From Dehalococcoidia bacterium (GTDB taxonomy: Bacteria > Chloroflexota > Dehalococcoidia > JAUSIH01): a stretch of 64,000 nt of DNA. The DNA lies in the NCBI GenBank assembly GCA_030648205.1, contig JAUSIH010000037.1, forward strand, positions 3,744 through 67,743, read 5' to 3'. How positions within the stretch are numbered: the stretch's first letter is position 1; the number at the start of each line of letters is the position of its first letter. Positions 47,463-60,353 of this stretch are shown in pieces. Below the pieces are notes generated by a model. That model was not told where the DNA came from, did no database searches, and was given only the letters and a program-made list of their open reading frames with translations. The position numbers were made by a program, and so were the translations under genes.

Positions 47463-49097
47463 TTACGGCACCACCTCTATCGCCAGCCGGAAGATGGGCA
47501 GTTGATATCCATACTCCAGGCTGGGATGGTCCTGAAGCGCGGTCAGTTGCGGCGTCTGGTACATGAAGGGGGGCTTCCCGTGCCCCTGATAGACGGTGGG
47601 GTACAGGTCAATCAAGTGCGTCCCCGGCTGGCCAGTCGCCCGCATGTTAATGACCACATCGCCTTTGCTGTTGAAGCCGCAGGCGTAGCCAATGTAGCTG
47701 TTGTCGTACGTGAGCGTGAAGGTGTTGTCAAGCTCCGTCCATCCGATGCCCTTCACGTGGACCTGGAACATCTCTCCCACCTTCACGCGGGAGGGAGTGA
47801 CCTCCACAAGACTCTGCTGGACGTAGAAGAAGGGCTCCGCGACCACCTTGTCGCCCTGCACGACCTTGAGCGTGTGCCACCCGCCGAGGTCGTCGGGGAC
47901 CTGGAAGTCCAAAGTCAGCGCACCCTGATTGTCCGATTTCGCTGTCCCCAGCGAGAGTTCCGCCAGCGCCCAGCCTCTGCCGCTCACGCGACTGCCTCTG
48001 GCCGTCATGAAGAAGACTTCGGTGGGGGTGTTGGCCGTCAGGCCCGTGACTCGCAGGGTCGCGTTGGAAAGAACGGGCCCTGTCGAGGGCGTGATGGTTG
48101 CCCGCGCTCCGGAGTTTATGGGCGTTTCACTCGCGGTGGTACGTATCGCGCTGAAGTTCAGCTTAACCACGCCCGGCTCCGGCCCGTCCAGGCTGGTGGC
48201 CGGCACGCCTGGGTCTTCCGTGACGGTGAACGTGAACTGGAAGGTGGGGGTATGACCCACTGGCGCCTGCTCCCAGTTCAGGTAGGGCACGCTCTTGTGG
48301 CCGTGCCAGAGTTCAATGACGTGTTTTCCCGGCGGCCCGCTGGCGCGAATAGCCGCCGTGGCCTGTCCACCCGTGGTGACGGTTGAAATGAACCCGGTGA
48401 ACTGGTTATCGTAGGTGAGGACCCAGGTGTTCTCGTACGGCCTCCAGCCGATCCCTTTGCCTTTGATGGTGATAGGCGTTCCTATGGGCCCTTGCGTGGG
48501 GGTGACGGTGAACTCCGGCAGGACGCGGAAGCCTCCCCGCGTCACATCCTGTCCGTCAACCACGCCGTACACGTCATGCACGCCGCCGTAGCCGTCCGGG
48601 GCGACAAGGTTCGCGCTCAGCTTGCCTTGTCCGTCGGTGACGGCGCGGCCGACAGGAACGCGCTTCTCGGTCCACTTGGCTTCGTAAAACTCTATGGTCT
48701 CCTGGCTGGGCTCCATGTCATAGCGTGCGCTCGCCGTCGCCCAGAAGAACTGCACCTCTTTGCTGGCGGGCAGGCCCTCGGCGCTGATGCTGAAGGGCTG
48801 GCCCACGCTGCCCTTGACGGGATTCACGTTGAGCGGCTTTGGGAGAGCGGCGGCGGCTGGCGCCGCCGCGGGCGCTGGCTGTCGAGGCGCGACCGCCGCC
48901 ACCGCTTCCGGCGCGCGCGGCTGCTCCATCTGCTTGGCCGCGGCCGGTGCGGCGACCGGCGCGGAACGCGGGGGTGCGGGAGAGGCCGATGAAACTCCCG
49001 GCGTACAGGCCGCCGCCAGCACAATCAGTCCAGAGAGGGCCAGATTGAATCCGGCCATCGGCAGATGTCGCTTTGGGAACGTTGCAAGGTTTTTCAT
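47463..49097 (-). CDS. uncharacterised lipoprotein 'A1' (~540 aa, internally duplicated beta-rich domains); paralog of 50037..51653
   Basis: SD 'gaaaggggggagg', then ATG at 49097. Lipobox 'VLAAAC'. Two internal repeats ('TVTPTQGPIGTPITIKGKGIGWRPYENTWVLTYDN' / 'EVTPSRVKVGEMFQVHVKGIGWTELDNTFTLTYDN'). Co-linear and similar to A2 over the whole length. Confidence 0.6.
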   Translation of the reverse strand: MKNLATFPKRHLPMAGFNLALSGLIVLAAACTPGVSSASPAPPRSAPVAAPAAAKQMEQPRAPEAVAAVAPRQPAPAAAPAAAALPKPLNVNPVKGSVGQPFSISAEGLPASKEVQFFWATASARYDMEPSQETIEFYEAKWTEKRVPVGRAVTDGQGKLSANLVAPDGYGGVHDVYGVVDGQDVTRGGFRVLPEFTVTPTQGPIGTPITIKGKGIGWRPYENTWVLTYDNQFTGFISTVTTGGQATAAIRASGPPGKHVIELWHGHKSVPYLNWEQAPVGHTPTFQFTFTVTEDPGVPATSLDGPEPGVVKLNFSAIRTTASETPINSGARATITPSTGPVLSNATLRVTGLTANTPTEVFFMTARGSRVSGRGWALAELSLGTAKSDNQGALTLDFQVPDDLGGWHTLKVVQGDKVVAEPFFYVQQSLVEVTPSRVKVGEMFQVHVKGIGWTELDNTFTLTYDNSYIGYACGFNSKGDVVINMRATGQPGTHLIDLYPTVYQGHGKPPFMYQTPQLTALQDHPSLEYGYQLPIFRLAIEVVP

Positions 49098-49133
49098 CGT
49101 CCTCCCCCCTTTCATTCGATGTACAGGCCGTTG

Positions 49134-49928
49134 CTATTCAATGATCTGGAGTCGCGTGTCCTCAGGGGGACTGCCTTGAGGAAAGATCAGGTACGGGGGC
49201 TTCCATGTGTACTTGCGCCCGTCCTTGGTGGCTATGTCAAACTCGTAGGTCAGGGCGCCCAGCGGATAGTTGAGGGGGACATCCCATTGGGTCACCCACA
49301 TGAAAGGGGCGTCAGGCTGGCGCCCGCCGGCGCGCTGGCCGAACCGCACGGTCTTTTCGTCGCCGTTCTGCATGCGCAGCTTGACGGTCGATCCATCCTG
49401 AGGTGTAAGGCGCTTCCCCGTGGATGTGTCGAACACTTCGAAGCGCCAGACTATGTTCATCCCGCGCTTGAACACGGTGGCGCCGACACAGGCGATGCTG
49501 CCCTGGATGACGTCTTCGGCATTGATCTTCAGATTGCCATGGGAGGAGGTCAGCACTTCCACGTAGACAACGAACGGGACGGGCTCGTAGAGAGAGGGTG
49601 GTGGCGGGGGTGGTGGTCGTGGCGTCGGGGCGCCGGGCACGGGCGTTGGCGCCGGTGTCCGCGGCTTGGCCAACGCCGCCGACACGAGCGCCATGCTGCC
49701 GGCTTGCTTGGCCGCGGCGGCTGCCTTCTGCTGCGCCGCCTGAATCTCCTGGTCCTTGGCGGCGAGTTGCTTCTGCAGGTCCGCTGCCTTCTTTTCCTGG
49801 GCCGTCGCCTGCGCCTTCGCGGCGTCCAGGTCTGCCTGGGAGATGCCGCTGCAAGCCGAGGCCAGCATGAGGATCGTGCCCAGCAGTCCGAACACTGCCG
49901 ACTTCTTGAACCGTATGCCGAATTTCAT
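49134..49928 (-). CDS. uncharacterised lipoprotein 'B1' (coiled-coil plus Pro-rich linker plus C-terminal domain); paralog of 51684..52493
   Basis: SD 'aaggaga', then ATG at 49928. Lipobox 'MLASACSG'. 'SQADLDAAKAQATA' coiled coil, a 'PPPPPPP' linker and the C-terminal domain 'VWRFE..D..TGKR.T..DG.TVK.R...GE......QRAGGR.PDAP.MW...WD.PLNYPLG'. Confidence 0.6.
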   Translation of the reverse strand: MKFGIRFKKSAVFGLLGTILMLASACSGISQADLDAAKAQATAQEKKAADLQKQLAAKDQEIQAAQQKAAAAAKQAGSMALVSAALAKPRTPAPTPVPGAPTPRPPPPPPPSLYEPVPFVVYVEVLTSSHGNLKINAEDVIQGSIACVGATVFKRGMNIVWRFEVFDTSTGKRLTPQDGSTVKLRMQNGDEKTVRFGQRAGGRQPDAPFMWVTQWDVPLNYPLGALTYEFDIATKDGRKYTWKPPYLIFPQGSPPEDTRLQIIE

Positions 49929-50036
49929 GCGTTCTCCTTTGTCAGTGGGGTGGTCTCGTCCATATGATGGTCGGTGCTTCAACCCAGACAAGCTGTATAT
50001 TTCGGGTCTCACCTCCGTTGGCTACCGCCTGGCCAG

Positions 50037-51653
50037 CTACGGCACCACCTCTATGGCCAGCCGGACGGCGGGCAGCTTGTATCCCAGCGACAGGGCAGGG
50101 AAGTCGTCTTTGTAGCTCAGGATGGGTACCTGGTATCCCCACGGCGGCTTCCCGTGCCCCTGATAGATCATCGGGTACAGGTCCACCAGGTGAATGCCAG
50201 GCGCGCCTGTGGCCACGAGGTTTACCGTGACGTCGCCCATGCTGTTGAAGCCGCACGCGAAGCCGATGTAGGCATTGTCATAGGTCATCGCCACGCCGTT
50301 CGTCAGCTCGGTCCAGCCCACTCCCTTGATGCGGATTGTAAAGGTCTCGCCAGCCTTCACGCGCGTTGGCGTCACGTCCACGAGGCTGATCTCGACGTAG
50401 TAGGGGACATCCGCGACAACCTTGCCCCCTTGCACCAGCTTCACCACGTGCCAGCCGCCCAGGTCGTCCGGGACCTGGATCGTCCCCGCCAGCACCCCAT
50501 TCGCGTCGGTTCTGGCCTTGAGAAGGGATGTCTCGTTCAAGCTCCACCCGCTCGGGCTGACGCGATTGCCGCGAACGGTCACCCAGAAGGCTTCCACATC
50601 GCTGTTGGGCGTGAGACCGCTCGCATTTAGCGCAGCTTTGGAGAGGATGGGGCCGGAGGCGGGTTTCAGCGTGGCGGTGGGGCCCGGCGACCGCAGGACG
50701 CCGCCCGCGCTACCTTGCGTGGTCTTGACAGCCTCGCTCACCGAGGCGACGCGGCTCGCGTCCGGCCAGTCGAGCGAGAAGGCCGGAAGGCCCTTGCTCT
50801 CGGTCACGGTGAACCAGGCGCGGAGGTCTGGTATGTGGGCGGTGCCGGACTGCTGGTTATTGAGGTACGGGACGGACTTGGCGCCATGGTTGAAGTCCAG
50901 GACGTGCTTGCCCACCGGGCCCGCGGCGCGGATGTGGGCTGTCGCCGTGCCGCGCGTGGTCACCGCCGTGATAATCCCCGTGGGCTGGTTGTTGTAGCGG
51001 AGCGCGATGGTGCTCTCGTAGACCTTCCAGCCGAGTCCGGTCATTTTGATGGTGATGGGGGTGCCGATGGGTCCTTCCTGCGGCGTGATGGTGACGTTCC
51101 GCATGATGCGGTAGCCGCCGCGCGCAACGTCGCCATTGTCCACGACGGCGAAGATGTCATGGACCTCCCCGAAGTCCTCCGGCGCCTTGAGCGACGCCGA
51201 GAACCTGCCTTGAGCGTCCGTGGTTGCCTGCCCCAGAGGCATCCGCTTCTCGACGAAATTCCTCTCGTAGAACTCGACGTTCTCCGCGGTGGCCTTCATG
51301 ACATAGCTGCCGTCCACCGTGACCCATAGCAACGTCACCGGCTTTCCGGGCGCAAGGCCGTCGCCGCTGATGGTGAAGGCGTCACCCACATAGCCCTTGC
51401 TGGGCTCGACCTTGAGCAGCTTCAGCGGTACGGGAGTGGGCGTGGGCGCCGTGGCGGGGCCGGCGCCGATCACCGGAACGTCCTGCATGTTTGGCGCAGT
51501 CGTTGTGGAAGAACTGGGGGAGGGCGGTCGCTCAGCGGGCTGCGCTTGCGGGGCAGAGACACAGGCCGCAAGCAACAGACCCGTGAGCGCAAGCATCAGG
51601 AACAGTCGTGCCCTCAAAGACCAATGCCTTGCTGATTCGTATGCGTTTGTCAT
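50037..51653 (-). CDS. uncharacterised lipoprotein 'A2' (paralog of A1)
   Basis: SD 'ggaggg', then ATG. Lipobox 'LLLAAC'. Shares '...LPxxRLAIEVVP' C-terminus and domain order with A1. Confidence 0.6.
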   Translation of the reverse strand: MTNAYESARHWSLRARLFLMLALTGLLLAACVSAPQAQPAERPPSPSSSTTTAPNMQDVPVIGAGPATAPTPTPVPLKLLKVEPSKGYVGDAFTISGDGLAPGKPVTLLWVTVDGSYVMKATAENVEFYERNFVEKRMPLGQATTDAQGRFSASLKAPEDFGEVHDIFAVVDNGDVARGGYRIMRNVTITPQEGPIGTPITIKMTGLGWKVYESTIALRYNNQPTGIITAVTTRGTATAHIRAAGPVGKHVLDFNHGAKSVPYLNNQQSGTAHIPDLRAWFTVTESKGLPAFSLDWPDASRVASVSEAVKTTQGSAGGVLRSPGPTATLKPASGPILSKAALNASGLTPNSDVEAFWVTVRGNRVSPSGWSLNETSLLKARTDANGVLAGTIQVPDDLGGWHVVKLVQGGKVVADVPYYVEISLVDVTPTRVKAGETFTIRIKGVGWTELTNGVAMTYDNAYIGFACGFNSMGDVTVNLVATGAPGIHLVDLYPMIYQGHGKPPWGYQVPILSYKDDFPALSLGYKLPAVRLAIEVVP

Positions 51654-51683
51654 GACCGCCCTCCGATCCCAGTTTAATGACTG

Positions 51684-52493
51684 CTATTCGACGATTTGAA
51701 GCCGACTGTCTGCCGTCGCGCTCACCAGCGCTGGCTGCTTCCATGTGCCAGTCGTCTTGCCATCCTTGGATGTCACAGTGATGCTGTAGTCGAGGCCGCC
51801 CAGCGGGTAGTTGAGCGGGATATCCCAAAACGCGTTCCACATCCAGGGTGCATCAGGGACGCGCCCGCCGGCTCGCTGGGACCACCGGGCGGTTATCTCC
51901 TCGCCGTGCGGGAGCCGCATCTTGACCGTCGCTCCGTCCAGGTCCGTCACCCGCTTGTCCGTGGCGAGGTCAATCGCCTCGAAGCGCCAGACGATGCGCT
52001 GCCCGCGCTTGAACACGCTGGTGGGCAGGCAGTTGACGGTGGAGGCTATGTCAAACTGGCTGGGCCTTTGTGTAGCCAGCGCCTCGACATGGAAGTAATA
52101 GGGGCCCACGGGCTGGGAGTAAGAAGCGGGAGTCACGGGCCGTGGTGGCGCCGCGACGCCGGGTGGGAGCGGCGTGGGAGTGGGAGGAGGCGGCGGCTGG
52201 GGCACTTTCTTCGCACCGATGAGCACCGTCACGCCCGCCGGGCCCGCGCTCTTCAGCGCGTCCTCTGCCTTCTTCTGCTCGGCCGTCAGCTTCTGTTGAA
52301 TGGTTGTGATCTCCTGCTGCCTGGCGGCCAGGTCCTTCTGGACAGCCGCCGTCTTCTGCTCGGCGGCGGTCGCCTGCGCCTTGGCGGCGTCCAGGTCCGC
52401 CTGGGAGATGCCGCTGCAGGCCGAGGCCAGCACCAGCGTTGCGCTCAGCGCCGAGAAAACCCCTAGCCTTTTGATACCTTTGCTAAACCCCAT
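51684..52493 (-). CDS. uncharacterised lipoprotein 'B2' (paralog of B1)
   Basis: Lipobox 'LVLASACSG'. Same coiled-coil, poly-Pro and C-terminal domain architecture as B1. Confidence 0.6.
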   Translation of the reverse strand: MGFSKGIKRLGVFSALSATLVLASACSGISQADLDAAKAQATAAEQKTAAVQKDLAARQQEITTIQQKLTAEQKKAEDALKSAGPAGVTVLIGAKKVPQPPPPPTPTPLPPGVAAPPRPVTPASYSQPVGPYYFHVEALATQRPSQFDIASTVNCLPTSVFKRGQRIVWRFEAIDLATDKRVTDLDGATVKMRLPHGEEITARWSQRAGGRVPDAPWMWNAFWDIPLNYPLGGLDYSITVTSKDGKTTGTWKQPALVSATADSRLQIVE

Positions 52494-52555
52494 GATGACC
52501 TCCTTTATCTCCTTTTTGGTGCGAGCCCAAAATACCGGCGCCGAAATGGCTTAGT

Positions 52556-53158
52556 CTATGGTCCCTTGTAGTCCAGGTTGGGGTACAAGGGGGCCGTAGG
52601 GCGGGTTACCTTGATGGCCTTGATCTCAAAACCGCCGCCTTTTGAAGATGCATGGCACGCGTTGCAGCCGTCAATGGCGTTGTCGTAAGCCTTTTCAAAG
52701 GCGGCTTTGTCTTTGGCCTTGGCCGCTGCTTCCAGGGCTTTCAGCGCTGGCGCCCAGTCACTCATGGCCTGCGCTCTTCCCGGGCGTGTCACCGCAATGG
52801 TGTTAAGCTCTTCGCCAGCGCGATAGATCTCGAAGCCGGCGAATTCCCAGTTTCCTGCCTGAGCAGCAAACCACATCAGGTTGAAGCTCTCGGTGAACTC
52901 GCGCATCCTGCCGGCTGTGCCAGGCTGGATAGCCCAGAGGGGCAGCTTTGTGTCAACCTTGGTGAACTTCTCGTCTATGATCTTGGTTACAGCTTCCGCG
53001 GAAGGGCCAGACGCACCTGCCGGGCCGGCCAGGCCTTGCGGTCCGGCAGGGCCGGGTGAGCCGGTAGGGCCAGCCGGGCCCTGGGGGCCAGCACACGCGG
53101 CCAGGACCAGAGTCATCAGGAGTCCTAGGATCAGAACAGGCCCGAGTTTTCTGAGCAC
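52556..53158 (-). CDS. cytochrome c'-like (class II, C-terminal CxxCH) lipoprotein with N-terminal collagen-like GXY repeats
   Basis: GTG start at 53158 with SD 'aaaggagg'. Lipobox 'LVLAAC'. Ten consecutive GXY triplets 'GPQGPAGPTGSPGPAGPQGLAGPAGASGPS'. Helical domain ends in 'AIDGCNACHASSKGG', a heme c site near the C-terminus as in cytochrome c'/c556. Confidence 0.6.
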   Translation of the reverse strand: MLRKLGPVLILGLLMTLVLAACAGPQGPAGPTGSPGPAGPQGLAGPAGASGPSAEAVTKIIDEKFTKVDTKLPLWAIQPGTAGRMREFTESFNLMWFAAQAGNWEFAGFEIYRAGEELNTIAVTRPGRAQAMSDWAPALKALEAAAKAKDKAAFEKAYDNAIDGCNACHASSKGGGFEIKAIKVTRPTAPLYPNLDYKGP

Positions 53159-53211
53159 GGAAACCTCCTTTGTTTGCTTACTTTGTGCAGGTCGCCGGGT
53201 AGCTCCTTTTC

Positions 53212-54189
53212 TCACCTCCTGCCGTGGACTCGGGAGATGCTGAAGGCCTGGTACAGGATGAACCCGAAGATTCCCCAGACCGCCAGTACAACAAGGGCCA
53301 GGCCAGAAGTGGCCCAGTGGTCGAGGAGTTGGTGGATGAGAGGCCGGTCCGCCACGCCGACTGTAAGAGACGCCGCCCACGGAGGTATGATGCCCAGCCC
53401 CGTCGACTCCATGACGTAGGCCGACGGCGGCGCGCCCGTGGACTGGATCGCTATGGCCTGCTCGCTCTCAGCGTACACGCCCATGCCCTCGAAGCGTGCC
53501 GTGATGGCGTACTGGTTCGTGGCAAGAGTGGGCTTGAAGTCCAGGAAGGCGACTCCTTTGGCATCGGTCTTCGCGGAGCCGATGTCCATCTTGCCCTTCC
53601 TGCCCGCGAACTCGGCGTCCAAGAGGAAGCGGACCTCCGCTTTGGGAACGGGGTTGCCGGAGCCGTCGTTCAGCGAGGCCATCAGGGCGACGGTCTCGCC
53701 TCCCGTGACCCAGGAAGAGGGAGAAACGTTCAGCTTTGTCGGGGTCAGCGCCGCGGCCCCACCGCCGCCACCGCCGCGCCGGACATTCAAGGCGCCGCGT
53801 TGCATGAAGTCGTGGATCTCGCAGTCCAGGTCGCACTTGAAGCGGAACGTGCCCGGTTTGTCCGCGAGGAACTTGAAGGTGAACTCTTTGTGTTCGGACG
53901 TGAGCTTGTCCGACTCCAGCTTGTATCCTTCCAGCACAATGATATGCTCGTCATGGATATACCCTTTGTGCGCCCACACGAAGGTCATCTCCACGAGCTT
54001 GCCCTGCTCGACTTCAATGACCGGGTCCCCTTCCTTGCCGTTGTAAGCGAACCCGGAGTCTGTTATCTCCACCCGCAGCTTCACGGGGTCATCGGCGCGG
54101 GCGACTCGCAGGGGCGTCAGCGCCAACAGAGCGACCAGGACGGCGGCGACTATTGCCGCGCGTCGTGTCCAGCTAACCATTTCTCGCAC
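53212..54189 (-). CDS. membrane-anchored cupredoxin-domain protein (type-1-like Cu site) with Ig-like domain and C-terminal TM
   Basis: N-terminal signal/TM. Cupredoxin beta-sandwich with 'WAHKGYIHDEH' and 'FKCDLDCEIHDFM' (C-x2-H-x2-M as in amicyanin, with an extra Cys 4 residues upstream). Gly-rich linker, a second beta domain and the C-terminal TM 'LALVVLAVWGIFGFILY'. Confidence 0.55.
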   Translation of the reverse strand: MREMVSWTRRAAIVAAVLVALLALTPLRVARADDPVKLRVEITDSGFAYNGKEGDPVIEVEQGKLVEMTFVWAHKGYIHDEHIIVLEGYKLESDKLTSEHKEFTFKFLADKPGTFRFKCDLDCEIHDFMQRGALNVRRGGGGGGAAALTPTKLNVSPSSWVTGGETVALMASLNDGSGNPVPKAEVRFLLDAEFAGRKGKMDIGSAKTDAKGVAFLDFKPTLATNQYAITARFEGMGVYAESEQAIAIQSTGAPPSAYVMESTGLGIIPPWAASLTVGVADRPLIHQLLDHWATSGLALVVLAVWGIFGFILYQAFSISRVHGRR

Positions 54190-55552
54190 CTCCCGTCTGC
54201 GGCGTGAGCGTGGTGGGCCCGGCCGCTAGTCCCGCGGACGGCGCCGACTGCTTGGCTTTCTCCTGCTCCCATCCTTCCTTCATCTCCCACACGGGGATTA
54301 TCGGAAAGAGCTTGGTGAAAAGCGTCAGGGTGAGCGCGAAGCCTCCGAAGGATGCCACGGTGACAGCTATCTCCACCCATGAGGGGGTATAGACGCCCCA
54401 GTCATACGGCAGAAGGGGCAGGGAAAGCGTTGGAACGACGATGATGAACCGTTTGATCCACATGCCGATGTTCACCAGGATGGACCCGATCAGCATCAGT
54501 GGGATGGTGCGCGTCCGGCGGAACGCCGCCCAGATGATGGGCAGAATCTGACCGAAGAAGAATCCCCCCCAGACCAGGGGGCTGTACTTGCCGAGCAGGA
54601 GCGACTCCAGCAGGAGTTTATCCTCGCTCGCCAGCTTGTAGCCTATGGTCAGGTACTCGGCGAAGGTGAAGTAGAGGTAGCCGATGCCGAATACCACGAG
54701 CAGGTAGCTCAGGTAGCGGAAGTGCTTCTCCGTTAAGTACTCCTCCAGGTGATAGACCTTGCGGAAGATGATCATGAGGGTGATGAGCATGGCCGTGCCG
54801 GAATACAGGGCGCCGACGGCGAAGTAGGGGGCGAAGATGGTGCTCGCCCAGCCCGCGCGGTAGGTCATGCCAAAGATCCAGGAGACCACTGAGTGCACCG
54901 TCACGCCGATGGGGATGATGATGAGCATCATGATGCCCGCGCCGCGCTCCAGGTGCCTGTGCTGCTCGGGCAATCCCTGCCATCCCAGGGAGACCAGAGA
55001 ATAGACGCGGTGACGCAGCCCGGATACCTTGCCGGCGAATTTGTCGCGCAGGAGGGCGGAGTCCGGAATAATGAACAGGAACAGGTAAATGACGCTGGCC
55101 GTCAGGTACGTGCTGATAGCCAGAATGTCCCACAGGAGGGGCGATTCAAGACGCCCGTACAGAAGAATGTTGGCGACCCGATCAGGGCGTCCCATGTCAA
55201 CTATGGGCATGAGGCCGCACATCAGCAGGGCGGAGACGGTGGTGATTTCCGCCAGGCGCGTGATCGGTCGGCGCCACTCCGCGCCCGTGATGCGCAGAAT
55301 GGCGGAGATGAAGGTGCCGGACATGCTCACTCCGCTGAAGAAGACGAAGTTGGAGATGTACAGGCCCCAGACCACCGTGTCACGCATCCCCGTGACGGCA
55401 AGGCCTCTCTGGAGCTGCTCGTAGTAGGCGACGAAGCCCACCCCCATAAGCACGACCAGGACGGCCATCCAGGCGTACCATGCGCGGGACGTATGCAAGA
55501 GGGGGCGATAGACCGTCTCTTCCAGTCGTTCTTCACGACTCGCGGTCGTCAT
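54173..55552 (-). CDS. NrfD/PsrC-family polytopic quinone-interacting membrane subunit
   Basis: 459 aa with ~10 TM helices and the typical NrfD N-terminal segment ('AWYAWMAVLVVLMGVGFVAYYEQLQRGLAVTGMRDTVVWGLYISNFVFFSG'). The start ATG at 55552 overlaps the stop of the FeS subunit. Confidence 0.8.
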   Translation of the reverse strand: MTTASREERLEETVYRPLLHTSRAWYAWMAVLVVLMGVGFVAYYEQLQRGLAVTGMRDTVVWGLYISNFVFFSGVSMSGTFISAILRITGAEWRRPITRLAEITTVSALLMCGLMPIVDMGRPDRVANILLYGRLESPLLWDILAISTYLTASVIYLFLFIIPDSALLRDKFAGKVSGLRHRVYSLVSLGWQGLPEQHRHLERGAGIMMLIIIPIGVTVHSVVSWIFGMTYRAGWASTIFAPYFAVGALYSGTAMLITLMIIFRKVYHLEEYLTEKHFRYLSYLLVVFGIGYLYFTFAEYLTIGYKLASEDKLLLESLLLGKYSPLVWGGFFFGQILPIIWAAFRRTRTIPLMLIGSILVNIGMWIKRFIIVVPTLSLPLLPYDWGVYTPSWVEIAVTVASFGGFALTLTLFTKLFPIIPVWEMKEGWEQEKAKQSAPSAGLAAGPTTLTPQTGGARNG

Positions 55553-56481
55553 TACTTGCCTCCTTCATGGGTCTTGTCCAGAGTGGCCCCCAGTTCCTGC
55601 CATGAGCGCGGGTTCTGGGTAGCGCGCTCGTCGCCGACGTGGTGGCCGTATTCCTGGCCGTGGCCGGGGATGTACCACACCCGTGGCCGCGTGCCCAGCT
55701 CCTCCTTCAGGCGGTAGGCGCTATTCTCGCCCAGGAACGTGGAGAGCTTGACGATGTCCGTGCCGTTGGTGGCGATGTCCTCGGTCAGATCGCCAAGATA
55801 GATCGCCTTCATGGGGCACTTCTCGGCGCAGGCGGGGAGCTTCCCATCCGCCGTGCGGTGCGCGCAGAGCATGCACTTCTCCACGGTACCCTGGCGGTGG
55901 GGAACGGGGAATTCAGGGCTGTACTTGGCGAATGTGGCCCCGGGCGGGTTCTGCGGCTGGTTCCAGTTGAAGGAGCGAGCTCCGTAGGGACAGGCGGCCA
56001 TGCACATGCGGCAGCCAATGCACCGCTCGTGGTTAATGAGGGTGACTCCCTCCTCCGTCCTGTAGGTGGCCCCCACCGGGCAGACCTTGACGCAGGGCGG
56101 GTTCTCACACTGCATGCACGGGCGGGGCAGGTAGTAGGTGTGGCCTGCCTCGCTTTTCACGTTCATGACCCTGAGCCACTGCTGCCCCGCCGGGACGAAG
56201 TGTTCCGTGTTGCAGGCCTCGGTGCACGCGGGCGGCTTGTCCTGCGTGACGCAGCCCTCGCACTTCCGCAGGTCAATCACCAATGTCCACTGGCGAAGCA
56301 CGCCGCCAGCCTTTTTGCCGGCTTCACCGGATGCGGTCCCGGTGGATTTACCCATCATCGAGGGCACAAGCGGCGCTGCGACGGCGGCCGCTCCGGCCAC
56401 TCCAATCAGTGCTAACAGCCGTCTCCGGCTGATTTTCCCGGCTTCGCCGGACTGGTTGGGGTCGCTGGTGTCACTGTCCAT
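55552..56481 (-). CDS. TAT-exported 4x[4Fe-4S] ferredoxin-type subunit (NrfC/PsrB/DmsB-like)
   Basis: Twin-arginine signal 'SRRRLLALIGVAGAAAVA'. Four Cys clusters ('CEGC..C...C', 'CMQCENPPCVKVCP', 'CIGCRMCMAACP', 'CMLCAH...CAEKCP'). SD 'aagggagggg' precedes the ATG at 56481. The upstream ATG at 56538 lacks an SD. Confidence 0.8.
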   Translation of the reverse strand: MDSDTSDPNQSGEAGKISRRRLLALIGVAGAAAVAAPLVPSMMGKSTGTASGEAGKKAGGVLRQWTLVIDLRKCEGCVTQDKPPACTEACNTEHFVPAGQQWLRVMNVKSEAGHTYYLPRPCMQCENPPCVKVCPVGATYRTEEGVTLINHERCIGCRMCMAACPYGARSFNWNQPQNPPGATFAKYSPEFPVPHRQGTVEKCMLCAHRTADGKLPACAEKCPMKAIYLGDLTEDIATNGTDIVKLSTFLGENSAYRLKEELGTRPRVWYIPGHGQEYGHHVGDERATQNPRSWQELGATLDKTHEGGK

Positions 56482-56640
56482 GGTCTCCCCTCCCTTGACT
56501 CGATCGAGGAACCCTCCCGCTCCTCGGCGCATATTCATATGCCAGATTCATTATGGCCGTTTAGAGGGGAGGGCAACATCCGAAAAACCTCGCGTCTTCC
56601 AGCGCGTGGAAACACCTGCTGTCAACACGTAGTCGTTCGG

Positions 56641-56670
56641 TTGCGATTCAAAGCGCGCCGCAAATATACT
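56641..56670 (+). promoter_or_regulatory. sigma70-like promoter TTGCGA-18-TATACT for the two-component system; divergent region shared with the NrfCD-like operon
   Basis: -35 at 56641-46, -10 at 56665-70. It lies in the 220-nt divergent intergenic region, 56482-56701. Confidence 0.45.
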
Positions 56671-56701
56671 AGAATAGAGTGTGAAAGCAGGTGCAGGGCG
56701 T

Positions 56702-57370
56702 ATGGAGCCGATTCGGGTTGTCCTGGGGGAAGACCACTCGCTGGTGCGCGAGGGGACGCGGCGCATCCTTGAGCAATACCCTGACCTGGTTGTCGTGGGA
56801 GAGGCCGGCGATGGGGAGCAGGCGCTTGAGATGGTGGGACGCCTGCAGCCAGACGTTGCTATCCTGGACGTTCGGATGCCAAAGCTCAGCGGCATCGAGG
56901 TAGTGCGTCGGATAAAGGCGTGCTCCCCGAACACGAAGGCATTGATGTTGACTGCCTACGATGACGACGACTACATTCTGGCATCAATGGAAGCGGAGGC
57001 GGCGGGCTATCTTCTTAAGACCGCCAGGGCCAGTGAGCTGGTAGAGGCGGTCCGGAGTGTCCATGCGGGCGAGTCTGTCCTGCACCCTGCTATCGCAGCG
57101 AAGGTGGCTCGCTTGTGGGGGCGCCGCCGGGTCAAGGTGGAGCAGGAGCCCGCCGAGGCGCTCAGCCCGCGGGAGCGCGAGGTGATGGACCTCGCCGCCA
57201 AGGGCCTTCGCAACAAGGACATAGCCGAGAAACTGTCCATAAGCGTGCGGACCGTGGAGGGACATTTCAATAGCATATTTGCCAAGCTGGGTGTCTCCTC
57301 CCGCGTTGAGGCTATTCTCTACGCGGTGTCGTTGCACACGGTCACTCCTGAAGAGGACAAGCGGACATAA
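56702..57370 (+). CDS. NarL/FixJ-family response regulator (REC + LuxR HTH)
   Basis: 'IRVVLGEDHSLVREG...VAILDVRMPKLSGIEV' receiver domain. The C-terminus 'LSPREREVMDLAAKGLRNKDIAEKLSISVRTVEGH' is a LuxR-type HTH. Confidence 0.85.
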   Translation: MEPIRVVLGEDHSLVREGTRRILEQYPDLVVVGEAGDGEQALEMVGRLQPDVAILDVRMPKLSGIEVVRRIKACSPNTKALMLTAYDDDDYILASMEAEAAGYLLKTARASELVEAVRSVHAGESVLHPAIAAKVARLWGRRRVKVEQEPAEALSPREREVMDLAAKGLRNKDIAEKLSISVRTVEGHFNSIFAKLGVSSRVEAILYAVSLHTVTPEEDKRT

Positions 57371-57372
57371 CT

Positions 57373-58941
57373 ATGGCGATTGACTACGTACGCAACGGCG
57401 ACCAGAGTTCTTCCTCGCGGCCCTTGGACGGGTTGGTTGAGAAGGGCAGGCATCGGCTTTCGCCTTATCTTCCCCGTTTCAGGGACTGGCGCTTCTGGGC
57501 GGTCCAGGGCTTGATAGCACTCATCGCGGGGACGCACACTATCCTGGAAGTCATGCGCCACAGCGGGTACACGGTCTTCGTGGGCCCTCCGGACGCGCAG
57601 GTGGTCCTGCTCTCTTTCATACCCGTCTCGCTGTTCTTCGTCCCCGTGGTGTACGCAGCCCTTAACTTCGGCCTGGCGGGCGCTGTGGCGACCGCCATAT
57701 GGTGTACGTTTCTTACAACACCCAACATCATGCTTCATTCGGAAACGGAGCGCATCCGCGAAGTCTTGCAGTTGGGGATTGTGGACGGCGTCGCGGTCTT
57801 CGTGGGGCAGCGCGTTAACCGGGAGATGAGCGCGCGGAAAGAGGCGGAAGACGCCAGCGCGGCGCTGCGTGTGTCAGAGGCCAAGTACCGGGGGCTTTTT
57901 GAGTCCTCCCCGGCGCCCATCCTCGTCCTGGACTCGCAGGGGGTCGTTTTGGAGGCCAATCCGGCGGCGGGCGTGCTGCTGGCCAGGTCTTCCGACGCTC
58001 TCAAGGGCGCCCATGTTTCTGACCTTTTTGAAACGCCGGGGGCCGAGCGGATACTGGGCTTGCTTCAGGAGGGCAGACGCGAAGACTCGTACGTTGTTTT
58101 GAAGTCCCTGGCCGGTGAGGAAACATACTTGGAGCCGATGGGGACGCGTATCAACGGCGGCCAAGCCAAAGCCGTCGTTCAGGTATTACTCAGGGACGTG
58201 ACTGTGGAGCGCCAGAGGCAGTTGGGCCTGCGGGCCTACGCCGCCCACGTGCTCCGCGCGCAGGAAGAAGAACGCAAGCGCATCGCCCAGGAGCTCCACG
58301 ATGAGACCGTCCAGACCCTCATTCTGCTGTGCCGTCGCCTGGATGTAGTGGAGACCGGGTGCGGGTCTATGCCCTCGTCCGCCATGGATGGGTTGAGGGA
58401 GGCCCGGAAGACGGCTGAAGCAGTCGTCAGAGACCTGCGGGATTTCAGCAAGGCTCTGCGGCCGCCGACGCTGGACGACCTTGGGTTGGTCACTTCCATT
58501 CGCAGGATTCTGATGGACCTGATGGACAGGGCCAAGGTGAATGGCCAGATAAAGGTGGTGGGGGAGGAGCGGCGCCTGCCGCCGGACCTGGAGCTTGCCT
58601 TATTCCGGATCGCGCAGGAGGCAATGCGGAACGTGGAGCGTCATGCCCAAGCGCGGGAAGTGACGGTGACCCTGTCCTTCTCCGGACGCGAGGCCAGGCT
58701 GGACGTTGTGGACAACGGCGTGGGCTTTGTGCTGCCTCCCCACTCGAGCGACATGGCCGCGTTCGGCCGGCTGGGGCTTCTCGGTATGCGGGAGCGGGCG
58801 GAACTGCTGGGCGGCAGGCTTGAGGTCAAGTCCACCGCTGGCAAGGGCACGCGGATCACCGCCTCTATTCCCGCTCCCGCTGACTCCACCTCACAGCCCC
58901 TCAGCCCCACCGGAAGCGCTGGGGGGAGAGGCAGTCCCTAA
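57373..58941 (+). CDS. membrane sensor histidine kinase (HisKA_3/NarX-DesK type) with PAS domain
   Basis: N-terminal TM helices, a PAS-like region ('LFESSPAPILVLDSQGVVLEANPAA'), H-box 'RIAQELHDETVQTL' and HATPase 'VVDNGVGF...GLLGMRERAELLGGRLEV'. Confidence 0.8.
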   Translation: MAIDYVRNGDQSSSSRPLDGLVEKGRHRLSPYLPRFRDWRFWAVQGLIALIAGTHTILEVMRHSGYTVFVGPPDAQVVLLSFIPVSLFFVPVVYAALNFGLAGAVATAIWCTFLTTPNIMLHSETERIREVLQLGIVDGVAVFVGQRVNREMSARKEAEDASAALRVSEAKYRGLFESSPAPILVLDSQGVVLEANPAAGVLLARSSDALKGAHVSDLFETPGAERILGLLQEGRREDSYVVLKSLAGEETYLEPMGTRINGGQAKAVVQVLLRDVTVERQRQLGLRAYAAHVLRAQEEERKRIAQELHDETVQTLILLCRRLDVVETGCGSMPSSAMDGLREARKTAEAVVRDLRDFSKALRPPTLDDLGLVTSIRRILMDLMDRAKVNGQIKVVGEERRLPPDLELALFRIAQEAMRNVERHAQAREVTVTLSFSGREARLDVVDNGVGFVLPPHSSDMAAFGRLGLLGMRERAELLGGRLEVKSTAGKGTRITASIPAPADSTSQPLSPTGSAGGRGSP

Positions 58942-59131
58942 GGAGGCCTCTGTGCCTGCCGCTCGGAATAGTACCAGCGGTAAGGCAGAACTCAGCCCCC
59001 CGCTTCTCCGCCTCGTGCCATTCCGCGGCAGGCCCCTTCTGACATGCAATCGTACCGTTGTCTTGCCCCAGGCGCGAGTCTGACAGAGCCTGTCGCTTTG
59101 CTGTCGGAGCTTTGGAAGATTGCCGTGTCGC

Positions 59132-60289
59132 TTACTTGGCCCGCTTGCCTTTGGGAGGGGTGCTCCGGCCCTTGAAGCGCTTGAGCAGGCCGGTGAGGGT
59201 GTCGCGGAAGCCACCGTACTCCAGCTCGCTGTAGGGGAGCATGGCGGCCCCGGACCATCCCTGGTCGCGCATGTACAGGGCCTTCTCCTGGGCCTTCGTC
59301 CGCACCACGTCCCAGGCGACGTTCGCGAAGAAGTCGCAGTGATTCTCGGAGAAATAACCCGCCACGTCCATGGAGAACCCCACGCAGGAGACGAGCGGCA
59401 GGCAGTATATCCCCGTGACGGGCGTGCCCAGGGGGACGGGCATGAGAGGCATGACGTGCGAGCCGCGCGCGTCGCCGCCCACGTAGTGCGCCTTGGCGAA
59501 GGGGGAGAGCAGCTCTTCCGGCGCGGGGAAGATGCCCTGGTTGCGGACGAGCGCCACGGGGTCGTCTTTGCCGGTGTATGTGCCCGCGATGCTGTGAAGC
59601 CGCTGCGCCGACACGGATACGGCCACGTCGCCCGTGGTGCGGGAGATGATCGCGTCAATGCCGAACCGCTCGTTGTCGCGGAGCAGCATGGCGATCTGGT
59701 AGTAGTCCTCCGGAGCGTTGAGTTCAATGATGCTGTCCGTTCCGGTGTGGTCCATGTCAATGATGCGGAATGTGAATCCCTTGATCATCTTGGGCAGCAT
59801 CAGGCCGGCGCAGTACATGGGGTCGGCGAAGGCGAGGAACAGGGGAAGGTTGTAGGCGCCGGGGCCGCACTTGTCGGCGGCGAACATGCAGAAGGACTCG
59901 GCGGCCCGGTTCTTGTTGGTCTTGACGGGGTTGTGGTCAAACTCCACCTCCGCCACGGCGGGGCCCGCCCCCCGGATGTTTCCCGACGGCGCATCCACCA
60001 GCAGGTCCTGTCCGGCCCCGTACAGCCCGGAGCGCTGTGCTATGGACGTCGCCTGTACAAAGGTGTTCCATGCGAACTGGTGGATGTCCGAGTTGCCCTC
60101 ACCTCGCGTGTGCGACATGAGTATGGCGATGTCGTCGCCGGTGTGGGACACAAAGCCGTCTATGACGAGTTTCTTGCCGATGGCGGATTTGACCGCCCGG
60201 CGCACCGACTCCACCATCTTCTGGGATGGCGTGGTGTGGCCGCCAATGGAGCCGACGTCTGCCTTCAGGATGGACAGGGTCATTTTCAT
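59132..60289 (-). CDS. fbp: bifunctional fructose-1,6-bisphosphate aldolase/phosphatase (FBPase class V)
   Basis: 'LSILKADVGSIGGHTTPS...FVSHTGDDIAILMSHTRGEGNSDIH' is highly characteristic of archaeal-type FBP aldolase/phosphatase. 385 aa. Confidence 0.85.
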   Translation of the reverse strand: MKMTLSILKADVGSIGGHTTPSQKMVESVRRAVKSAIGKKLVIDGFVSHTGDDIAILMSHTRGEGNSDIHQFAWNTFVQATSIAQRSGLYGAGQDLLVDAPSGNIRGAGPAVAEVEFDHNPVKTNKNRAAESFCMFAADKCGPGAYNLPLFLAFADPMYCAGLMLPKMIKGFTFRIIDMDHTGTDSIIELNAPEDYYQIAMLLRDNERFGIDAIISRTTGDVAVSVSAQRLHSIAGTYTGKDDPVALVRNQGIFPAPEELLSPFAKAHYVGGDARGSHVMPLMPVPLGTPVTGIYCLPLVSCVGFSMDVAGYFSENHCDFFANVAWDVVRTKAQEKALYMRDQGWSGAAMLPYSELEYGGFRDTLTGLLKRFKGRSTPPKGKRAK

Positions 60290-60353
60290 GGTGTTATCTC
60301 CTTCTTGATGTGTTCAGTGGGGCCACGGGCGCCAGGATGCCAATGTTATATCG

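What the first reader, a model, noticed from the sequence alone, without database searches (positions are those of the whole stretch)
52556..53158. Cytochrome c'-like lipoprotein tethered by a collagen-like (GXY)10 linker
After the lipobox 'LVLAAC' the mature protein begins with ten uninterrupted Gly-X-Y triplets, 'GPQGPAGPTGSPGPAGPQGLAGPAGASGPS', followed by a four-helix-type domain. That domain ends with a single haem c site 'CNACH' near the C-terminus, the class II cytochrome c'/c556 topology. Bacterial collagen-like tracts fused to a small cytochrome are unusual. Such a tract could serve as a semi-rigid tether holding the haem domain away from the membrane, or mediate trimerisation.
Basis: seen in the sequence. 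Interest (0 to 1): 0.55.

Follow-up and report, generated by a model that had tools for sequence, protein, structure and literature searches.

The report
Collagen-stalked lipoprotein cytochrome c
A Dehalococcoidia bacterium encodes a small lipid-anchored haem protein joined to its membrane anchor by a short collagen-like (Gly-X-Y)10 stalk; this build recurs in many Chloroflexota cytochromes, and I found no paper describing it.

Summary
A 200-aa gene lies on the minus strand (52556-53158) with a good ribosome-binding site. It encodes a signal peptide with lipobox LAAC, one Ala, ten uninterrupted Gly-X-Y triplets, and a ~147-aa domain ending in CNACH. AlphaFold gives a confident four-helix bundle with the haem motif at the end of helix 4. 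Cytochromes c' are the commonest structural matches, but neither the sequence scores nor the fold-search E-values are significant. Met85 is invariant in 88 relatives, so His/Met ligation (c556-like) is more likely than a five-coordinate c'. The haem domain belongs to a large family with no Pfam or NCBIfam model of its own (576 clusters at 50% identity). In Chloroflexota its members are lipoproteins. The spacer after the lipid-bearing Cys varies: (GXY)3-22, a coiled coil, a Pro/Thr/Ala-rich stretch, or none in Tectomicrobia and Betaproteobacteria members. Gly codons change only synonymously while X/Y positions change fast. The same lipobox-plus-GXY head occurs on multihaem cytochromes and a cupredoxin. 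Neighbours are quinol-oxidising modules (NrfCD-like, Rieske/cytochrome b), Ccm genes and a HisKA_3/NarL-type two-component system. Best reading: a tethered electron carrier. Triple-helix formation is unproven.

The parts
52556..53158 (-). Whole gene: 200-aa lipoprotein monohaem cytochrome c (GTG start, TAG stop at 52556-52558)
   Evidence: ORF list. An identical 200-aa gene call exists in a public assembly. Orthologues in L019 and L020 are 90% identical with the same start.
53164..53171 (-). Ribosome-binding site AAAGGAGG, 5 nt upstream of the GTG
   Evidence: Read directly from the sequence.
53093..53158 (-). Signal peptide, residues 1-22. Lipobox L-A-A-C occupies 53093-53104, and Cys22 is the predicted lipid-modified first residue of the mature protein.
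   Evidence: Sequence. A lipobox-type motif is found in most Chloroflexota relatives. An Lgt gene lies next to a homologue in L001.
53000..53089 (-). Collagen-like tract (Gly-X-Y)10, residues 24-53: GPQ GPA GPT GSP GPA GPQ GLA GPA GAS GPS
   Evidence: Six-frame scan. Pfam Collagen 21.7 bits, below the cut-off. Gly codons show 3-4 synonymous and 0 non-synonymous changes against L019/L020, while X/Y codons show 6-7 non-synonymous changes out of 20. No DNA tandem repeat. AlphaFold pLDDT about 60 with no secondary structure in the monomer.
52559..52999 (-). Haem domain, residues 54-200: N-terminal helix 54-65, four-helix bundle (81-100, 104-124, 126-147, 151-170), and a C-terminal tail with a short hairpin
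   Evidence: AlphaFold model, whole-chain mean pLDDT 86, above 90 over most of the domain. Foldseek top hits are cytochromes c', PsbQ and Kusta0087/88. 576 related clusters in the representative library.
52904..52906 (-). Met85 codon: invariant Met, candidate sixth haem ligand
   Evidence: Invariant in 88 aligned sequences. A Met at the equivalent spot is also present in the distant soil homologues printed. It is the fifth residue of helix A, at the same end of the bundle as His169 (topological inference).
52652..52666 (-). Haem c attachment motif C165-N-A-C168-H169
   Evidence: C, N, C and H are invariant. CNxCH is present in 116 of 122 single-domain representatives.
55552..56538 (-). First gene of the operon: NrfC/DsrO-like 4Fe-4S protein with twin-arginine signal SRRRLL
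   Evidence: Pfam Fer4_11 and NCBIfam DsrO at 192.8 bits, just under the 200-bit cut-off. N-terminus.
54173..55552 (-). NrfD/DsrP-like integral membrane quinone-interacting subunit
   Evidence: Pfam NrfD 1.1e-28. NCBI names it 'NrfD/PsrC family' in a Dehalococcoidia MAG.
53212..54189 (-). Membrane protein with a cupredoxin-like domain, an Ig-like (Big) domain and a C-terminal TM helix; ends 53 nt upstream of the cytochrome start
   Evidence: Pfam hits are all sub-threshold: Big_3_5, Big_1, Cupredoxin_1. Weak PDB hits to cupredoxin domains of Cu nitrite reductase and multicopper oxidase. H82, C119, C123 and H126 are invariant in 36 homologues.
47463..52493 (-). Four downstream lipoprotein genes, as two paralogous pairs. 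Coiled-coil lipoproteins: 51684-52493 and 49134-50012. Ig/TIG-like lipoproteins: 50037-51653 and 47463-49115. Their spacers are coiled-coil plus poly-Pro, or Pro/Ser/Thr/Ala-rich, not GXY.
   Evidence: The pair is conserved after the cupredoxin gene in L092 and L093.
56681..58941 (+). Divergent two-component system: NarL/GerE-type response regulator (56681-57370) and a histidine kinase (57373-58941) with a hydrophobic N-terminal region, PAS and HisKA_3 domains
   Evidence: Pfam; sequence and hydropathy. The same type of system lies next to the cytochrome in L001/2, L004/5, L016/22, L019, L020, L031, L041 and L090.

Best explanation
The gene encodes a lipid-anchored monohaem cytochrome c that most likely acts as a tethered electron carrier on the outer face of the cytoplasmic membrane of a Dehalococcoidia (Chloroflexota) bacterium.

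Shown:
- A signal peptide with lipobox, a (GXY)10 tract, and a confidently predicted four-helix bundle with CNACH at the end of helix 4.
- Invariant Met85, Cys165, Asn166, Cys168 and His169.
- A position in a tightly spaced operon after a Tat-exported NrfC-like Fe-S protein, an NrfD-like quinone-site subunit and a membrane-anchored cupredoxin-like protein.

Inferred:
- Cys22 is diacylglycerol-modified and the signal peptide is cleaved.
- Haem is attached covalently outside the cytoplasm and ligated by His169 and Met85, giving a low-spin electron-transfer haem rather than a gas-binding c'.
- The 30-residue Gly-X-Y tract is an extended stalk, about 9 nm if fully extended. It lets the haem domain reach donors and acceptors: the NrfCD-type quinol module, the cupredoxin protein, or other partners.
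- The direction of electron flow is unknown.
- The neighbouring PAS-HisKA_3/NarL-type system probably regulates the cluster.

The tract is one of several interchangeable stalk types in this family. Strict conservation of Gly at every third residue suggests it can form a collagen-type triple helix, but that is not demonstrated.
For: Anatomy and conservation:
- Gene, start and frame.
- CNxCH and Met85 invariant in 88 sequences.
- Four-helix bundle, whole-chain mean pLDDT 86, above 90 over most of the domain.
- Cytochromes c' are the commonest Foldseek hits, at TM 0.41-0.62 on the target; the best TM is 0.77 to the four-helix cytochrome Kusta0087/88.
- hhalign and Pfam align helix D plus the haem motif to cytochrome c'.
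- Tandem three-domain relatives exceed the PF01322 cut-off at 39 bits.

Context that fits electron transfer:
- NrfC (Tat signal) and NrfD precede the gene here and in L019. NrfC and NrfD follow it in L016 and L090.
- L091 has Rieske, cytochrome b and a class I cytochrome c upstream, and CcmE/F/H/ABC downstream.
- L018 has an MtrC/MtrF-like multihaem gene immediately upstream.
- In L016 and L090 the third gene carries a class I cytochrome c domain. In the window it carries a cupredoxin-like domain. The Ig-like/C-terminal part matches in L016 and Big domains are called in L090.

Stalk:
- 56 of 94 relatives have 5 or more triplets. The first Gly is two residues after the lipobox Cys in 52 of 56. 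X is Pro in 60% of triplets; Y is Ala in 48% and Gln in 16%.
- Gly codons change only synonymously, while X/Y positions change 3-4 times faster than the haem domain.
- Members named as Tectomicrobia or Betaproteobacteria have a plain signal peptide and no spacer.

Precedent: cytochrome c_y is a TM anchor, a 69-residue linker and a 100-residue haem domain, and its linker length limits its reach (PMC7876108).
Against: - No experiment: haem binding, lipidation, ligation and redox partners are all inferred.
- Sequence similarity to any solved structure is insignificant, and all Foldseek E-values are 0.076 or higher.
- The cytochrome is not a fixed subunit. L092 and L093 keep the two-component system, NrfC, NrfD, the cupredoxin protein, the coiled-coil lipoprotein and the Ig-like protein, but lack the cytochrome. 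L001 and L004 carry the cytochrome with only a two-component system. L003 and L017 show neither neighbour, though both are cut close to the cytochrome gene on one side.
- An invariant Met could be a non-ligating distal residue, as occurs at the equivalent pocket position in some c' proteins (my own knowledge).
- Ten Hyp-free, uncharged triplets should give a weak triple helix. Close relatives have as few as 3 triplets, or a coiled coil instead, so the function does not depend on a helix of fixed length.
Confidence: 0.6

Rival explanations
1. The tract forms a true collagen triple helix. The protein would then be a lipid-anchored homotrimer, or a heterotrimer with other GXY-headed lipoproteins. 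The stalk would be a rigid rod of about 9 nm carrying three redox domains, rather than a flexible single-chain spacer. This rival concerns the tract only. It is compatible with the electron-carrier reading, so the confidences overlap.
For: - Gly at every third residue is kept without interruption in 56 relatives at 35-90% identity, although the DNA is not repetitive.
- Gly codons show only synonymous change.
- Pro is favoured at X, and Ala, Gln and Thr at Y, as in other bacterial collagen-like proteins (my own knowledge).
- Aperiodic Pro/Ala/Ser/Thr spacers in the same operon show that GC-rich composition alone does not produce the periodicity.
- The alternative spacer in close relatives is a coiled coil, which is another oligomerising rod.
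- Tandem paralogues P0022 and P0068 have tracts that are 80% identical while their domains are 41% identical; the background for tracts is 63 +/- 7%.
- Named sources are mostly groundwater or aquifer metagenomes. These are presumably cold, which would favour short helices (inference).
Against: - Only 10 triplets, no charged residues, no Arg at Y and no hydroxyproline. Peptides of this kind melt at or below room temperature (my own knowledge).
- No trimerisation domain was found. Helix 54-65 is also present in members without a tract.
- Known class II cytochromes are monomers or dimers (my own knowledge).
- Close relatives differ widely: 3 against 16 triplets at 89% domain identity.
- The AlphaFold monomer model is uninformative for this region, with pLDDT about 60.
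Confidence: 0.35
2. The protein is a haem-based sensor partner of the neighbouring two-component system, sensing gas or redox state as cytochrome c' binds NO and CO. It would act like the accessory lipoproteins that modulate some histidine kinases.
For: - A HisKA_3 kinase and a GerE-type regulator are the most frequent neighbours: the window plus eight further distinct loci.
- In L001/2, L004/5, L031 and L041 the order is kinase, regulator, cytochrome on one strand, and no quinol module is seen.
- The kinases in L001 and L004 have about 260 residues between their two hydrophobic segments. That region could contact a lipoprotein.
- The fold resembles that of the NO-binding cytochromes c' and Kusta0087/88.
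Against: - The invariant Met suggests a closed, six-coordinate haem.
- The kinases in the window, L016 and L090 share a conserved hydrophobic N-terminal region with only short gaps between its hydrophobic stretches, followed by PAS and HisKA_3. I see no sizeable outside domain.
- The same type of two-component system flanks NrfCD-cupredoxin clusters that lack the cytochrome. It therefore looks like the regulator of the cluster.
- Other neighbours are bc-type complexes, Ccm genes and an MtrC-like cytochrome.
Confidence: 0.12
3. The tract is a neutral low-complexity spacer. It would be a by-product of GC-rich codons and past slippage of 9-nt units, with no structural role beyond separating the anchor from the domain.
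For: - Genome GC is 64.5%.
- Spacer type and length are highly plastic between close relatives, and members named as Tectomicrobia or Betaproteobacteria need no spacer.
- X/Y positions evolve fast.
Against: - No DNA repeat is detectable.
- Gly is never replaced, although its codons drift synonymously.
- The periodicity holds across very divergent tracts.
- Aperiodic spacers exist beside it in the same operon.
Confidence: 0.15

Closest known systems
Ambler class II cytochromes c (cytochrome c', cytochrome c556; Pfam PF01322)
   Same: - Predicted four-helix up-down bundle.
- A single CxxCH at the C-terminal end of the last helix.
- c' structures are the commonest Foldseek hits.
- A Met at the start of helix A, as in the His/Met members such as c556 (my own knowledge).
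   Different: - Below the Pfam cut-off, and only helix D aligns.
- No significant PDB sequence hit.
- An invariant Asn inside the motif (CNxCH).
- An extra N-terminal helix and a 30-residue C-terminal tail with invariant Pro187.
- Lipid-anchored with a stalk, whereas the classical members are soluble periplasmic proteins.
Kusta0087/Kusta0088 four-helix cytochrome c complex of Kuenenia stuttgartiensis (PDB 6r6o)
   Same: Best structural superposition: TM 0.77 normalised on the target, rmsd 3.1 A over 118 columns. It is a small four-helix haem c protein.
   Different: Only 13% identity and Foldseek E = 0.55. It is a soluble anammox protein that forms a heterodimer, with different haem ligation (my own knowledge). 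It has no lipobox and no stalk.
Membrane-anchored cytochrome c_y of Rhodobacter capsulatus, and lipoprotein cytochromes c of Gram-positive bacteria
   Same: The build is an anchor, a long linker and one small haem domain that shuttles between membrane complexes. Linker length sets the reach: c_y has a 30-residue TM helix, a 69-residue linker and a 100-residue domain (PMC7876108).
   Different: c_y has a TM-helix anchor, an aperiodic linker and a class I fold. Here the anchor is a lipid, the linker is strictly Gly-X-Y and the fold is class II-like.
Bacterial collagen-like proteins (Scl1/Scl2, BclA, Lcl)
   Same: Uninterrupted Gly-X-Y with Pro mainly at X. These are the only NCBIfam and PDB sequence neighbours of the tract.
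   Different: - Those proteins have long collagen-like regions, an adjacent trimerising domain, and roles in adhesion or spore surfaces (PMC8968730; lengths are my own knowledge).
- Here there are 10 triplets, no trimerisation domain, an N-terminal lipid anchor and a redox cargo.
Alternative complex III with auracyanin in Chloroflexus
   Same: A quinol-oxidising NrfD-type membrane subunit with an Fe-S subunit on the outer face, handing electrons to membrane-tethered small copper or haem carriers in a Chloroflexota cell (my own knowledge of ACIII and auracyanin).
   Different: - This cytochrome is the only product of the eight-gene cluster 47463-56538 with a CxxCH motif, so there is no ActA-type pentahaem subunit.
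- NrfC is a 328-aa Fe-S protein without a molybdopterin-like part, so there is no ActB-type large subunit.
- The carrier has a four-helix fold.

Membership tests
Class II cytochrome c (c'/c556; PF01322) | Four-helix up-down bundle | tested here: met
   AlphaFold model: helices 81-100, 104-124, 126-147 and 151-170; pLDDT above 90 over most of the domain. This is a prediction, not a solved structure.
Class II cytochrome c (c'/c556; PF01322) | Single CxxCH close to the C-terminus, at the end of the last helix | tested here: met
   CNACH at residues 165-169, within helix 151-170. C, C and H are invariant in 88 sequences.
Class II cytochrome c (c'/c556; PF01322) | Sequence match to the family model at the curated threshold | tested here: not met
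   21.8 bits against a cut-off of 26.5, covering model positions 78-118 only. 25 of 88 relatives hit, all at E of 3.6e-4 or weaker. Only tandem three-domain relatives exceed the cut-off, through summed scores.
Class II cytochrome c (c'/c556; PF01322) | Significant structural similarity to solved members | tested here: inconclusive
   c' entries are the commonest hits, with Foldseek probability 0.85-1.00 and TM on the target 0.41-0.62. But E is 0.076 or higher, and PsbQ four-helix bundles score equally.
Class II cytochrome c (c'/c556; PF01322) | Haem ligation: five-coordinate His (c') or His/Met (c556) | not testable with these tools
   Invariant Met85 at the start of helix A favours His/Met. 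Spectroscopy is needed.
Collagen triple-helix repeat proteins (PF01391; Scl, BclA, Lcl) | Uninterrupted Gly-X-Y repeats | tested here: met
   Ten triplets, residues 24-53. Relatives carry 3-22 triplets.
Collagen triple-helix repeat proteins (PF01391; Scl, BclA, Lcl) | Match to the Pfam model at the curated threshold | tested here: not met
   21.7 bits against 27.2. 40 of 88 relatives match at E of 0.01 or better, and members with longer tracts carry a precomputed PF01391 hit.
Collagen triple-helix repeat proteins (PF01391; Scl, BclA, Lcl) | Adjacent trimerisation or nucleation domain | tested here: inconclusive
   No such domain in Pfam or NCBIfam. The helix after the tract is also present in tract-less relatives. 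Whether the lipid anchor could set the chain register is untested.
Collagen triple-helix repeat proteins (PF01391; Scl, BclA, Lcl) | Formation of a trimeric triple helix | not testable with these tools
   Only monomer prediction was available, and the tract has pLDDT about 60.
Bacterial lipoproteins (Lgt/LspA substrates) | Signal peptide ending in a lipobox [LVI][ASTVI][GAS]C | tested here: met
   MLRK, a hydrophobic core, then L-A-A-C22. A lipobox-type motif is found in most Chloroflexota relatives.
Bacterial lipoproteins (Lgt/LspA substrates) | Lgt and LspA present in the organism, and actual acylation | not tested
   The window holds no recognised lgt or lsp gene among the ORFs I scanned. 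An Lgt gene lies next to a homologue in L001.
Alternative complex III (ActABCDEF) | Pentahaem ActA and large ActB subunit together with NrfD-type subunits | tested here: not met
   This cytochrome is the only product of the eight-gene cluster with a CxxCH motif. The Fe-S subunit is a 328-aa NrfC/DsrO-like protein. The cluster may work like a quinol:carrier oxidoreductase, but it is not ACIII.

The most novel reading that the evidence does not exclude
Collagen-like triple-helical stalks could be a lineage-wide device of Chloroflexota. Placed straight after the lipid-bearing Cys, they would assemble extracytoplasmic redox proteins into lipid-anchored homo- or heterotrimers held at a set height above the membrane. 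The cargo would be four-helix cytochromes, multihaem cytochromes and cupredoxins. Together these would form an electron conduit across the space between the membrane and the wall or S-layer. This would be a new job for prokaryotic collagen, and a new principle for organising respiratory chains in cells without an outer membrane.
Probability: 0.15. Interest if true: 0.75.

Novelty: new variant of a known kind. Interest (0 to 1): 0.5.

Why it matters
Membrane-tethered small electron carriers are known, and so are bacterial collagen-like proteins. Joining the two appears undescribed: a strictly periodic Gly-X-Y stalk between a lipid anchor and a redox domain. My six literature searches aimed at this found nothing. 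A 2022 review of prokaryotic collagens mentions neither cytochromes, lipoproteins nor Chloroflexi.

The motif is not a one-off. It sits on most Chloroflexota members of a large haem family that has no family model of its own, on multihaem cytochromes of Anaerolineae and Chloroflexia, and on a cupredoxin. It may therefore say something general about how these poorly understood, mostly uncultured bacteria arrange respiration outside the cytoplasmic membrane.

It also offers a natural, very short, hydroxyproline-free collagen segment. Its folding could be tested with a built-in spectroscopic reporter, the haem.

Tried and rejected
- **Wrong frame or strand.** Rejected. The ribosome-binding site, the orthologue starts and an identical public gene call all agree.
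- **Recent DNA slippage array.** Tandem Repeats Finder found nothing at a minimum score of 30.
- **PDB sequence searches.** The single sequence and the 88-sequence profile gave only collagen peptides, ribosomal protein S20 and cytochrome c' at E of 0.09 or higher.
- **Locus scan with the full alignment A1.** The single-protein scan of genomes found only two true homologues, plus six multihaem cytochromes that matched through the N-terminal head.
- **Protein search with the 56-residue head alone.** Only six fragments came back, so there is no catalogue of cargo domains. That search was wasted.
- **Core-subunit idea.** Rejected. L092 and L093 keep the whole NrfCD-cupredoxin cluster without the cytochrome.
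- **Sensor-partner idea.** Kept only as a minor rival.
- **Rest of the window.** Only housekeeping genes were found: ClpB/ClpC-type AAA+ chaperone, RadA-like, EF-Tu and a solute-binding protein.
- **Not possible here.** A trimer prediction, and measuring the Met85-His169 distance in the model, because coordinates are not exposed.
Full report
**1. Observation**

The feature is a gene on the minus strand at 52556-53158. It starts with GTG. AAAGGAGG lies 5 nt upstream (read). Orthologues L019 and L020 start at the same residue, and a public assembly carries an identical 200-aa gene call.

The product has four parts:
- a signal peptide ending in the lipobox L-A-A-C22;
- Ala23;
- a 147-residue domain with CNACH at residues 165-169.

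No other run in any frame of the 64-kb window (64.5% GC) exceeds six triplets. Ten in-phase Gly at the domain's Gly frequency have P of about 5e-12. Tandem Repeats Finder sees no DNA repeat. The window comes from a Dehalococcoidia MAG; the neighbouring proteins are NCBI MDO8531374-81.

**2. The haem domain**

Sequence evidence is weak:
- Pfam gives only sub-threshold hits: Collagen 21.7 against 27.2 bits, and Cytochrom_C_2 21.8 against 26.5 bits over helix D alone.
- NCBIfam matches only the tract, to collagen-like adhesins.
- PDB sequence searches are insignificant.

Structure prediction is clearer. AlphaFold on an 88-sequence alignment gives a confident model (whole-chain mean pLDDT 86, above 90 over most of residues 55-200). 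It shows helices at 81-100, 104-124, 126-147 and 151-170, preceded by helix 54-65 and followed by a 30-residue tail.

Foldseek against the PDB returns no hit with E of 0.001 or better. Cytochromes c' are the commonest hits (TM 0.41-0.62 on the target), alongside PsbQ four-helix bundles. The best superposition is the four-helix cytochrome Kusta0087/88, at TM 0.77. hhalign aligns only helix D to Alcaligenes cytochrome c', at 73% probability. It aligns nothing to b562.

The invariant residues are Met85, Cys165, Asn166, Cys168, His169 and Pro187. Met85 is the fifth residue of helix A. His169 is near the end of helix D. In an up-down bundle these lie at the same end, as in His/Met four-helix cytochromes. 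This is a topological inference. I therefore read the haem as six-coordinate His/Met, but that is not shown.

The family is large. A search of 1.84 billion representatives found 576 clusters at E of 0.001 or better. These include tandem three-domain forms, each domain with its own CNxCH. Only those forms pass the PF01322 cut-off, through summed scores.

**3. The stalk**

Among 94 family members, 56 have 5 or more triplets and 29 have 10 or more; the range is 3-22. The first Gly is two residues after the lipobox Cys in 52 of 56. X is Pro in 60% of triplets. Y is Ala in 48%, Gln in 16% and Pro in 10%.

The spacer is interchangeable:
- P0007, P0008 and P0010 carry a coiled-coil-like spacer. It resembles the N-terminus of the window's next gene.
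- Others have Pro/Thr/Ala-rich spacers.
- The members without a lipobox have a plain signal peptide and no spacer; those that carry a source name are Tectomicrobia or Betaproteobacteria.

These changes happen between close relatives. P0007's domain is 81% identical to the window's. P0034 has 3 triplets and P0014 has 16, at 89% domain identity.

The periodicity nevertheless looks selected. Against L019 and L020, the ten Gly codons show 3-4 synonymous and 0 non-synonymous changes. The twenty X/Y codons show 6-7 non-synonymous changes. The 147 domain codons show 10-15. Other lipoproteins in the same operon have aperiodic Pro/Ser/Thr/Ala spacers, so composition alone does not explain the pattern.

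Whether ten uncharged, hydroxyproline-free triplets form a triple helix cannot be decided here. No trimerisation domain is evident, and the monomer model is uninformative for the tract.

**4. The module is general in Chloroflexota**

Hits that matched the query only through its N-terminal head include hexahaem cytochromes (P0097, P0099-P0101, P0106, P0107, P0109, P0115, P0117, P0120), a cupredoxin (P0119) and several domains of unknown function. Each has the lipobox followed by (GXY)8-12.

A genome scan found six multihaem cytochromes with the same head, in Anaerolineae, Anaerolineales, Anaerolineaceae and Chloroflexia MAGs. In two of these loci NrfC- and NrfD-like genes lie about 2.3 kb downstream. 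Every GXY-bearing protein or locus that carries a source name is from Chloroflexota.

Six literature searches aimed at this found no description. A 2022 review of prokaryotic collagen-like proteins contains no mention of Chloroflexi, cytochromes or lipoproteins.

**5. Context**

The gene is fourth in a tightly spaced minus-strand cluster:
- NrfC/DsrO-like Fe-S protein with the Tat signal SRRRLL;
- NrfD/DsrP-like membrane subunit;
- a cupredoxin-like, Ig-like, TM-anchored protein;
- this cytochrome;
- two pairs of lipoproteins, each pair a coiled-coil protein and an Ig/TIG-like protein.

Between the cupredoxin gene and the cytochrome gene the consensus scan shows no promoter-like or terminator-like site on this strand. 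The one nearby terminator-like hit lies inside the cupredoxin coding region.

A NarL/GerE-type regulator and a PAS-HisKA_3 kinase lie divergently upstream. The kinase's N-terminal region is hydrophobic, and I see no sizeable outside domain.

Across related loci:
- L019 has the same order.
- L016 and L090 have the two-component system, the cytochrome, NrfC and NrfD. Their third gene carries a class I cytochrome c domain where the window has a cupredoxin-like one.
- L091 places the cytochrome after Rieske, cytochrome b and a class I cytochrome c, and before Ccm genes.
- L018 places it after an MtrC/MtrF-like multihaem gene.
- L001/2, L004/5, L031 and L041 have only the kinase, the regulator and the cytochrome.
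- L092 and L093 keep the whole NrfCD-cupredoxin-lipoprotein cluster and the two-component system but lack the cytochrome.

The cytochrome is therefore an accessory carrier rather than a core subunit. The two-component system is most simply the regulator of the cluster.

**6. Mechanism and comparison**

The best-supported reading is a lipid-anchored, probably His/Met, four-helix cytochrome c. It would exchange electrons with quinol-oxidising modules and small copper or haem partners on the outer face of the membrane. Its stalk would be about 9 nm if fully extended.

It would work like cytochrome c_y, which has a TM anchor, a 69-residue linker and a 100-residue haem domain, and whose linker length limits its reach (PMC7876108). 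From my own knowledge it would also work like the tethered auracyanins that serve alternative complex III. It is a member of neither family, and the cluster is not ACIII: no other product of the cluster has a CxxCH motif.

It is class II-like in fold and in the position of the haem motif, but it fails the Pfam threshold and carries its own decorations. The tract has the collagen sequence signature but is below the Pfam cut-off, short, and without a trimerisation domain.

**7. Verdict**

This is a new variant of known kinds: a tethered cytochrome and a bacterial collagen-like segment. Interest is moderate, at 0.5.

The main open point, and the source of any higher interest, is whether these stalks really form triple helices that oligomerise redox proteins across Chloroflexota.

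Noticed in passing
window 53212-54189 (-): The cupredoxin-like, Ig-like, TM-anchored protein upstream has invariant H82, C119, C123 and H126 in 36 Chloroflexota homologues. The motif C-x3-C-x2-H(-x2-M) resembles the CuA signature C-x3-C-x3-H-x2-M more than a plain type-1 site. Met129 is Leu in most relatives.
   Followed up: partly
window 47463-58941; L019, L092, L093: A gene cluster recurs in Chloroflexota with or without the cytochrome: HisKA_3/GerE two-component system, Tat-NrfC, NrfD, cupredoxin-Ig protein, coiled-coil lipoprotein, Ig/TIG lipoprotein. I know of no assigned function for it. In the window the last two genes are duplicated: 51684-52493 with 50037-51653, and 49134-50012 with 47463-49115.
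   Followed up: partly
L016 6820-7908; L090 6611-7705: In these related clusters the third gene carries a class I cytochrome c domain where the window has a cupredoxin-like domain. The Ig-like/C-terminal part matches in L016, and Big domains are called in L090. This looks like a swap of redox domains on one scaffold.
   Followed up: partly
P0121-P0125, P0128: Some relatives are tandem triplications of the CNxCH four-helix domain, giving three haems in 512-675 aa. P0121 is a lipoprotein with Pro/Thr/Ala-rich spacers. P0124 and P0125 add a further C-terminal CxxCH; in P0124 it lies in a class I cytochrome c domain.
   Followed up: no
L004 8001-8666 and 8925-9605 (P0022, P0068): Two tandem paralogues from different subfamilies have collagen-like tracts of 16 and 17 triplets. 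The tracts are 80% identical while the haem domains are 41% identical; the background for tracts is 63 +/- 7%. This suggests either gene conversion of the head or selection for co-assembly.
   Followed up: partly
L008-L013; L009 12469-13720; L012 12456-14344: Multihaem cytochromes of Anaerolineae, Anaerolineales, Anaerolineaceae and Chloroflexia MAGs carry the same lipobox-plus-GXY head. In L009 and L012, NrfC- and NrfD-like genes lie about 2.3 kb downstream.
   Followed up: partly
window 51684-52493 (-) and P0007/P0008/P0010: The coiled-coil spacer of some cytochrome orthologues ('ACSGVKQSDLDALKQQ...') closely resembles the N-terminus of the window's next gene ('ACSGISQADLDAAKAQ...'). This suggests that stalk modules are exchanged between unrelated lipoproteins.
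   Followed up: no
window 57373-57900 (+); L016 and L090 kinases: The hydrophobic N-terminal region of the histidine kinase ('RPRFRDW.FWAVQGL...FIP.SLFFVPVVYAALNFG') is strongly conserved between loci whose cytochromes belong to different subfamilies. It may be a membrane-embedded sensing domain.
   Followed up: no
L001 8851-9618 (-): A prolipoprotein diacylglyceryl transferase (Lgt) gene lies immediately downstream of a cytochrome homologue. This fits with these proteins being true lipoproteins.
   Followed up: no
window 59120-60523 and 60525-62960 (+): Two long ORFs (467 and 811 aa) downstream of the histidine kinase have no Pfam match at E of 0.01 or better.
   Followed up: no
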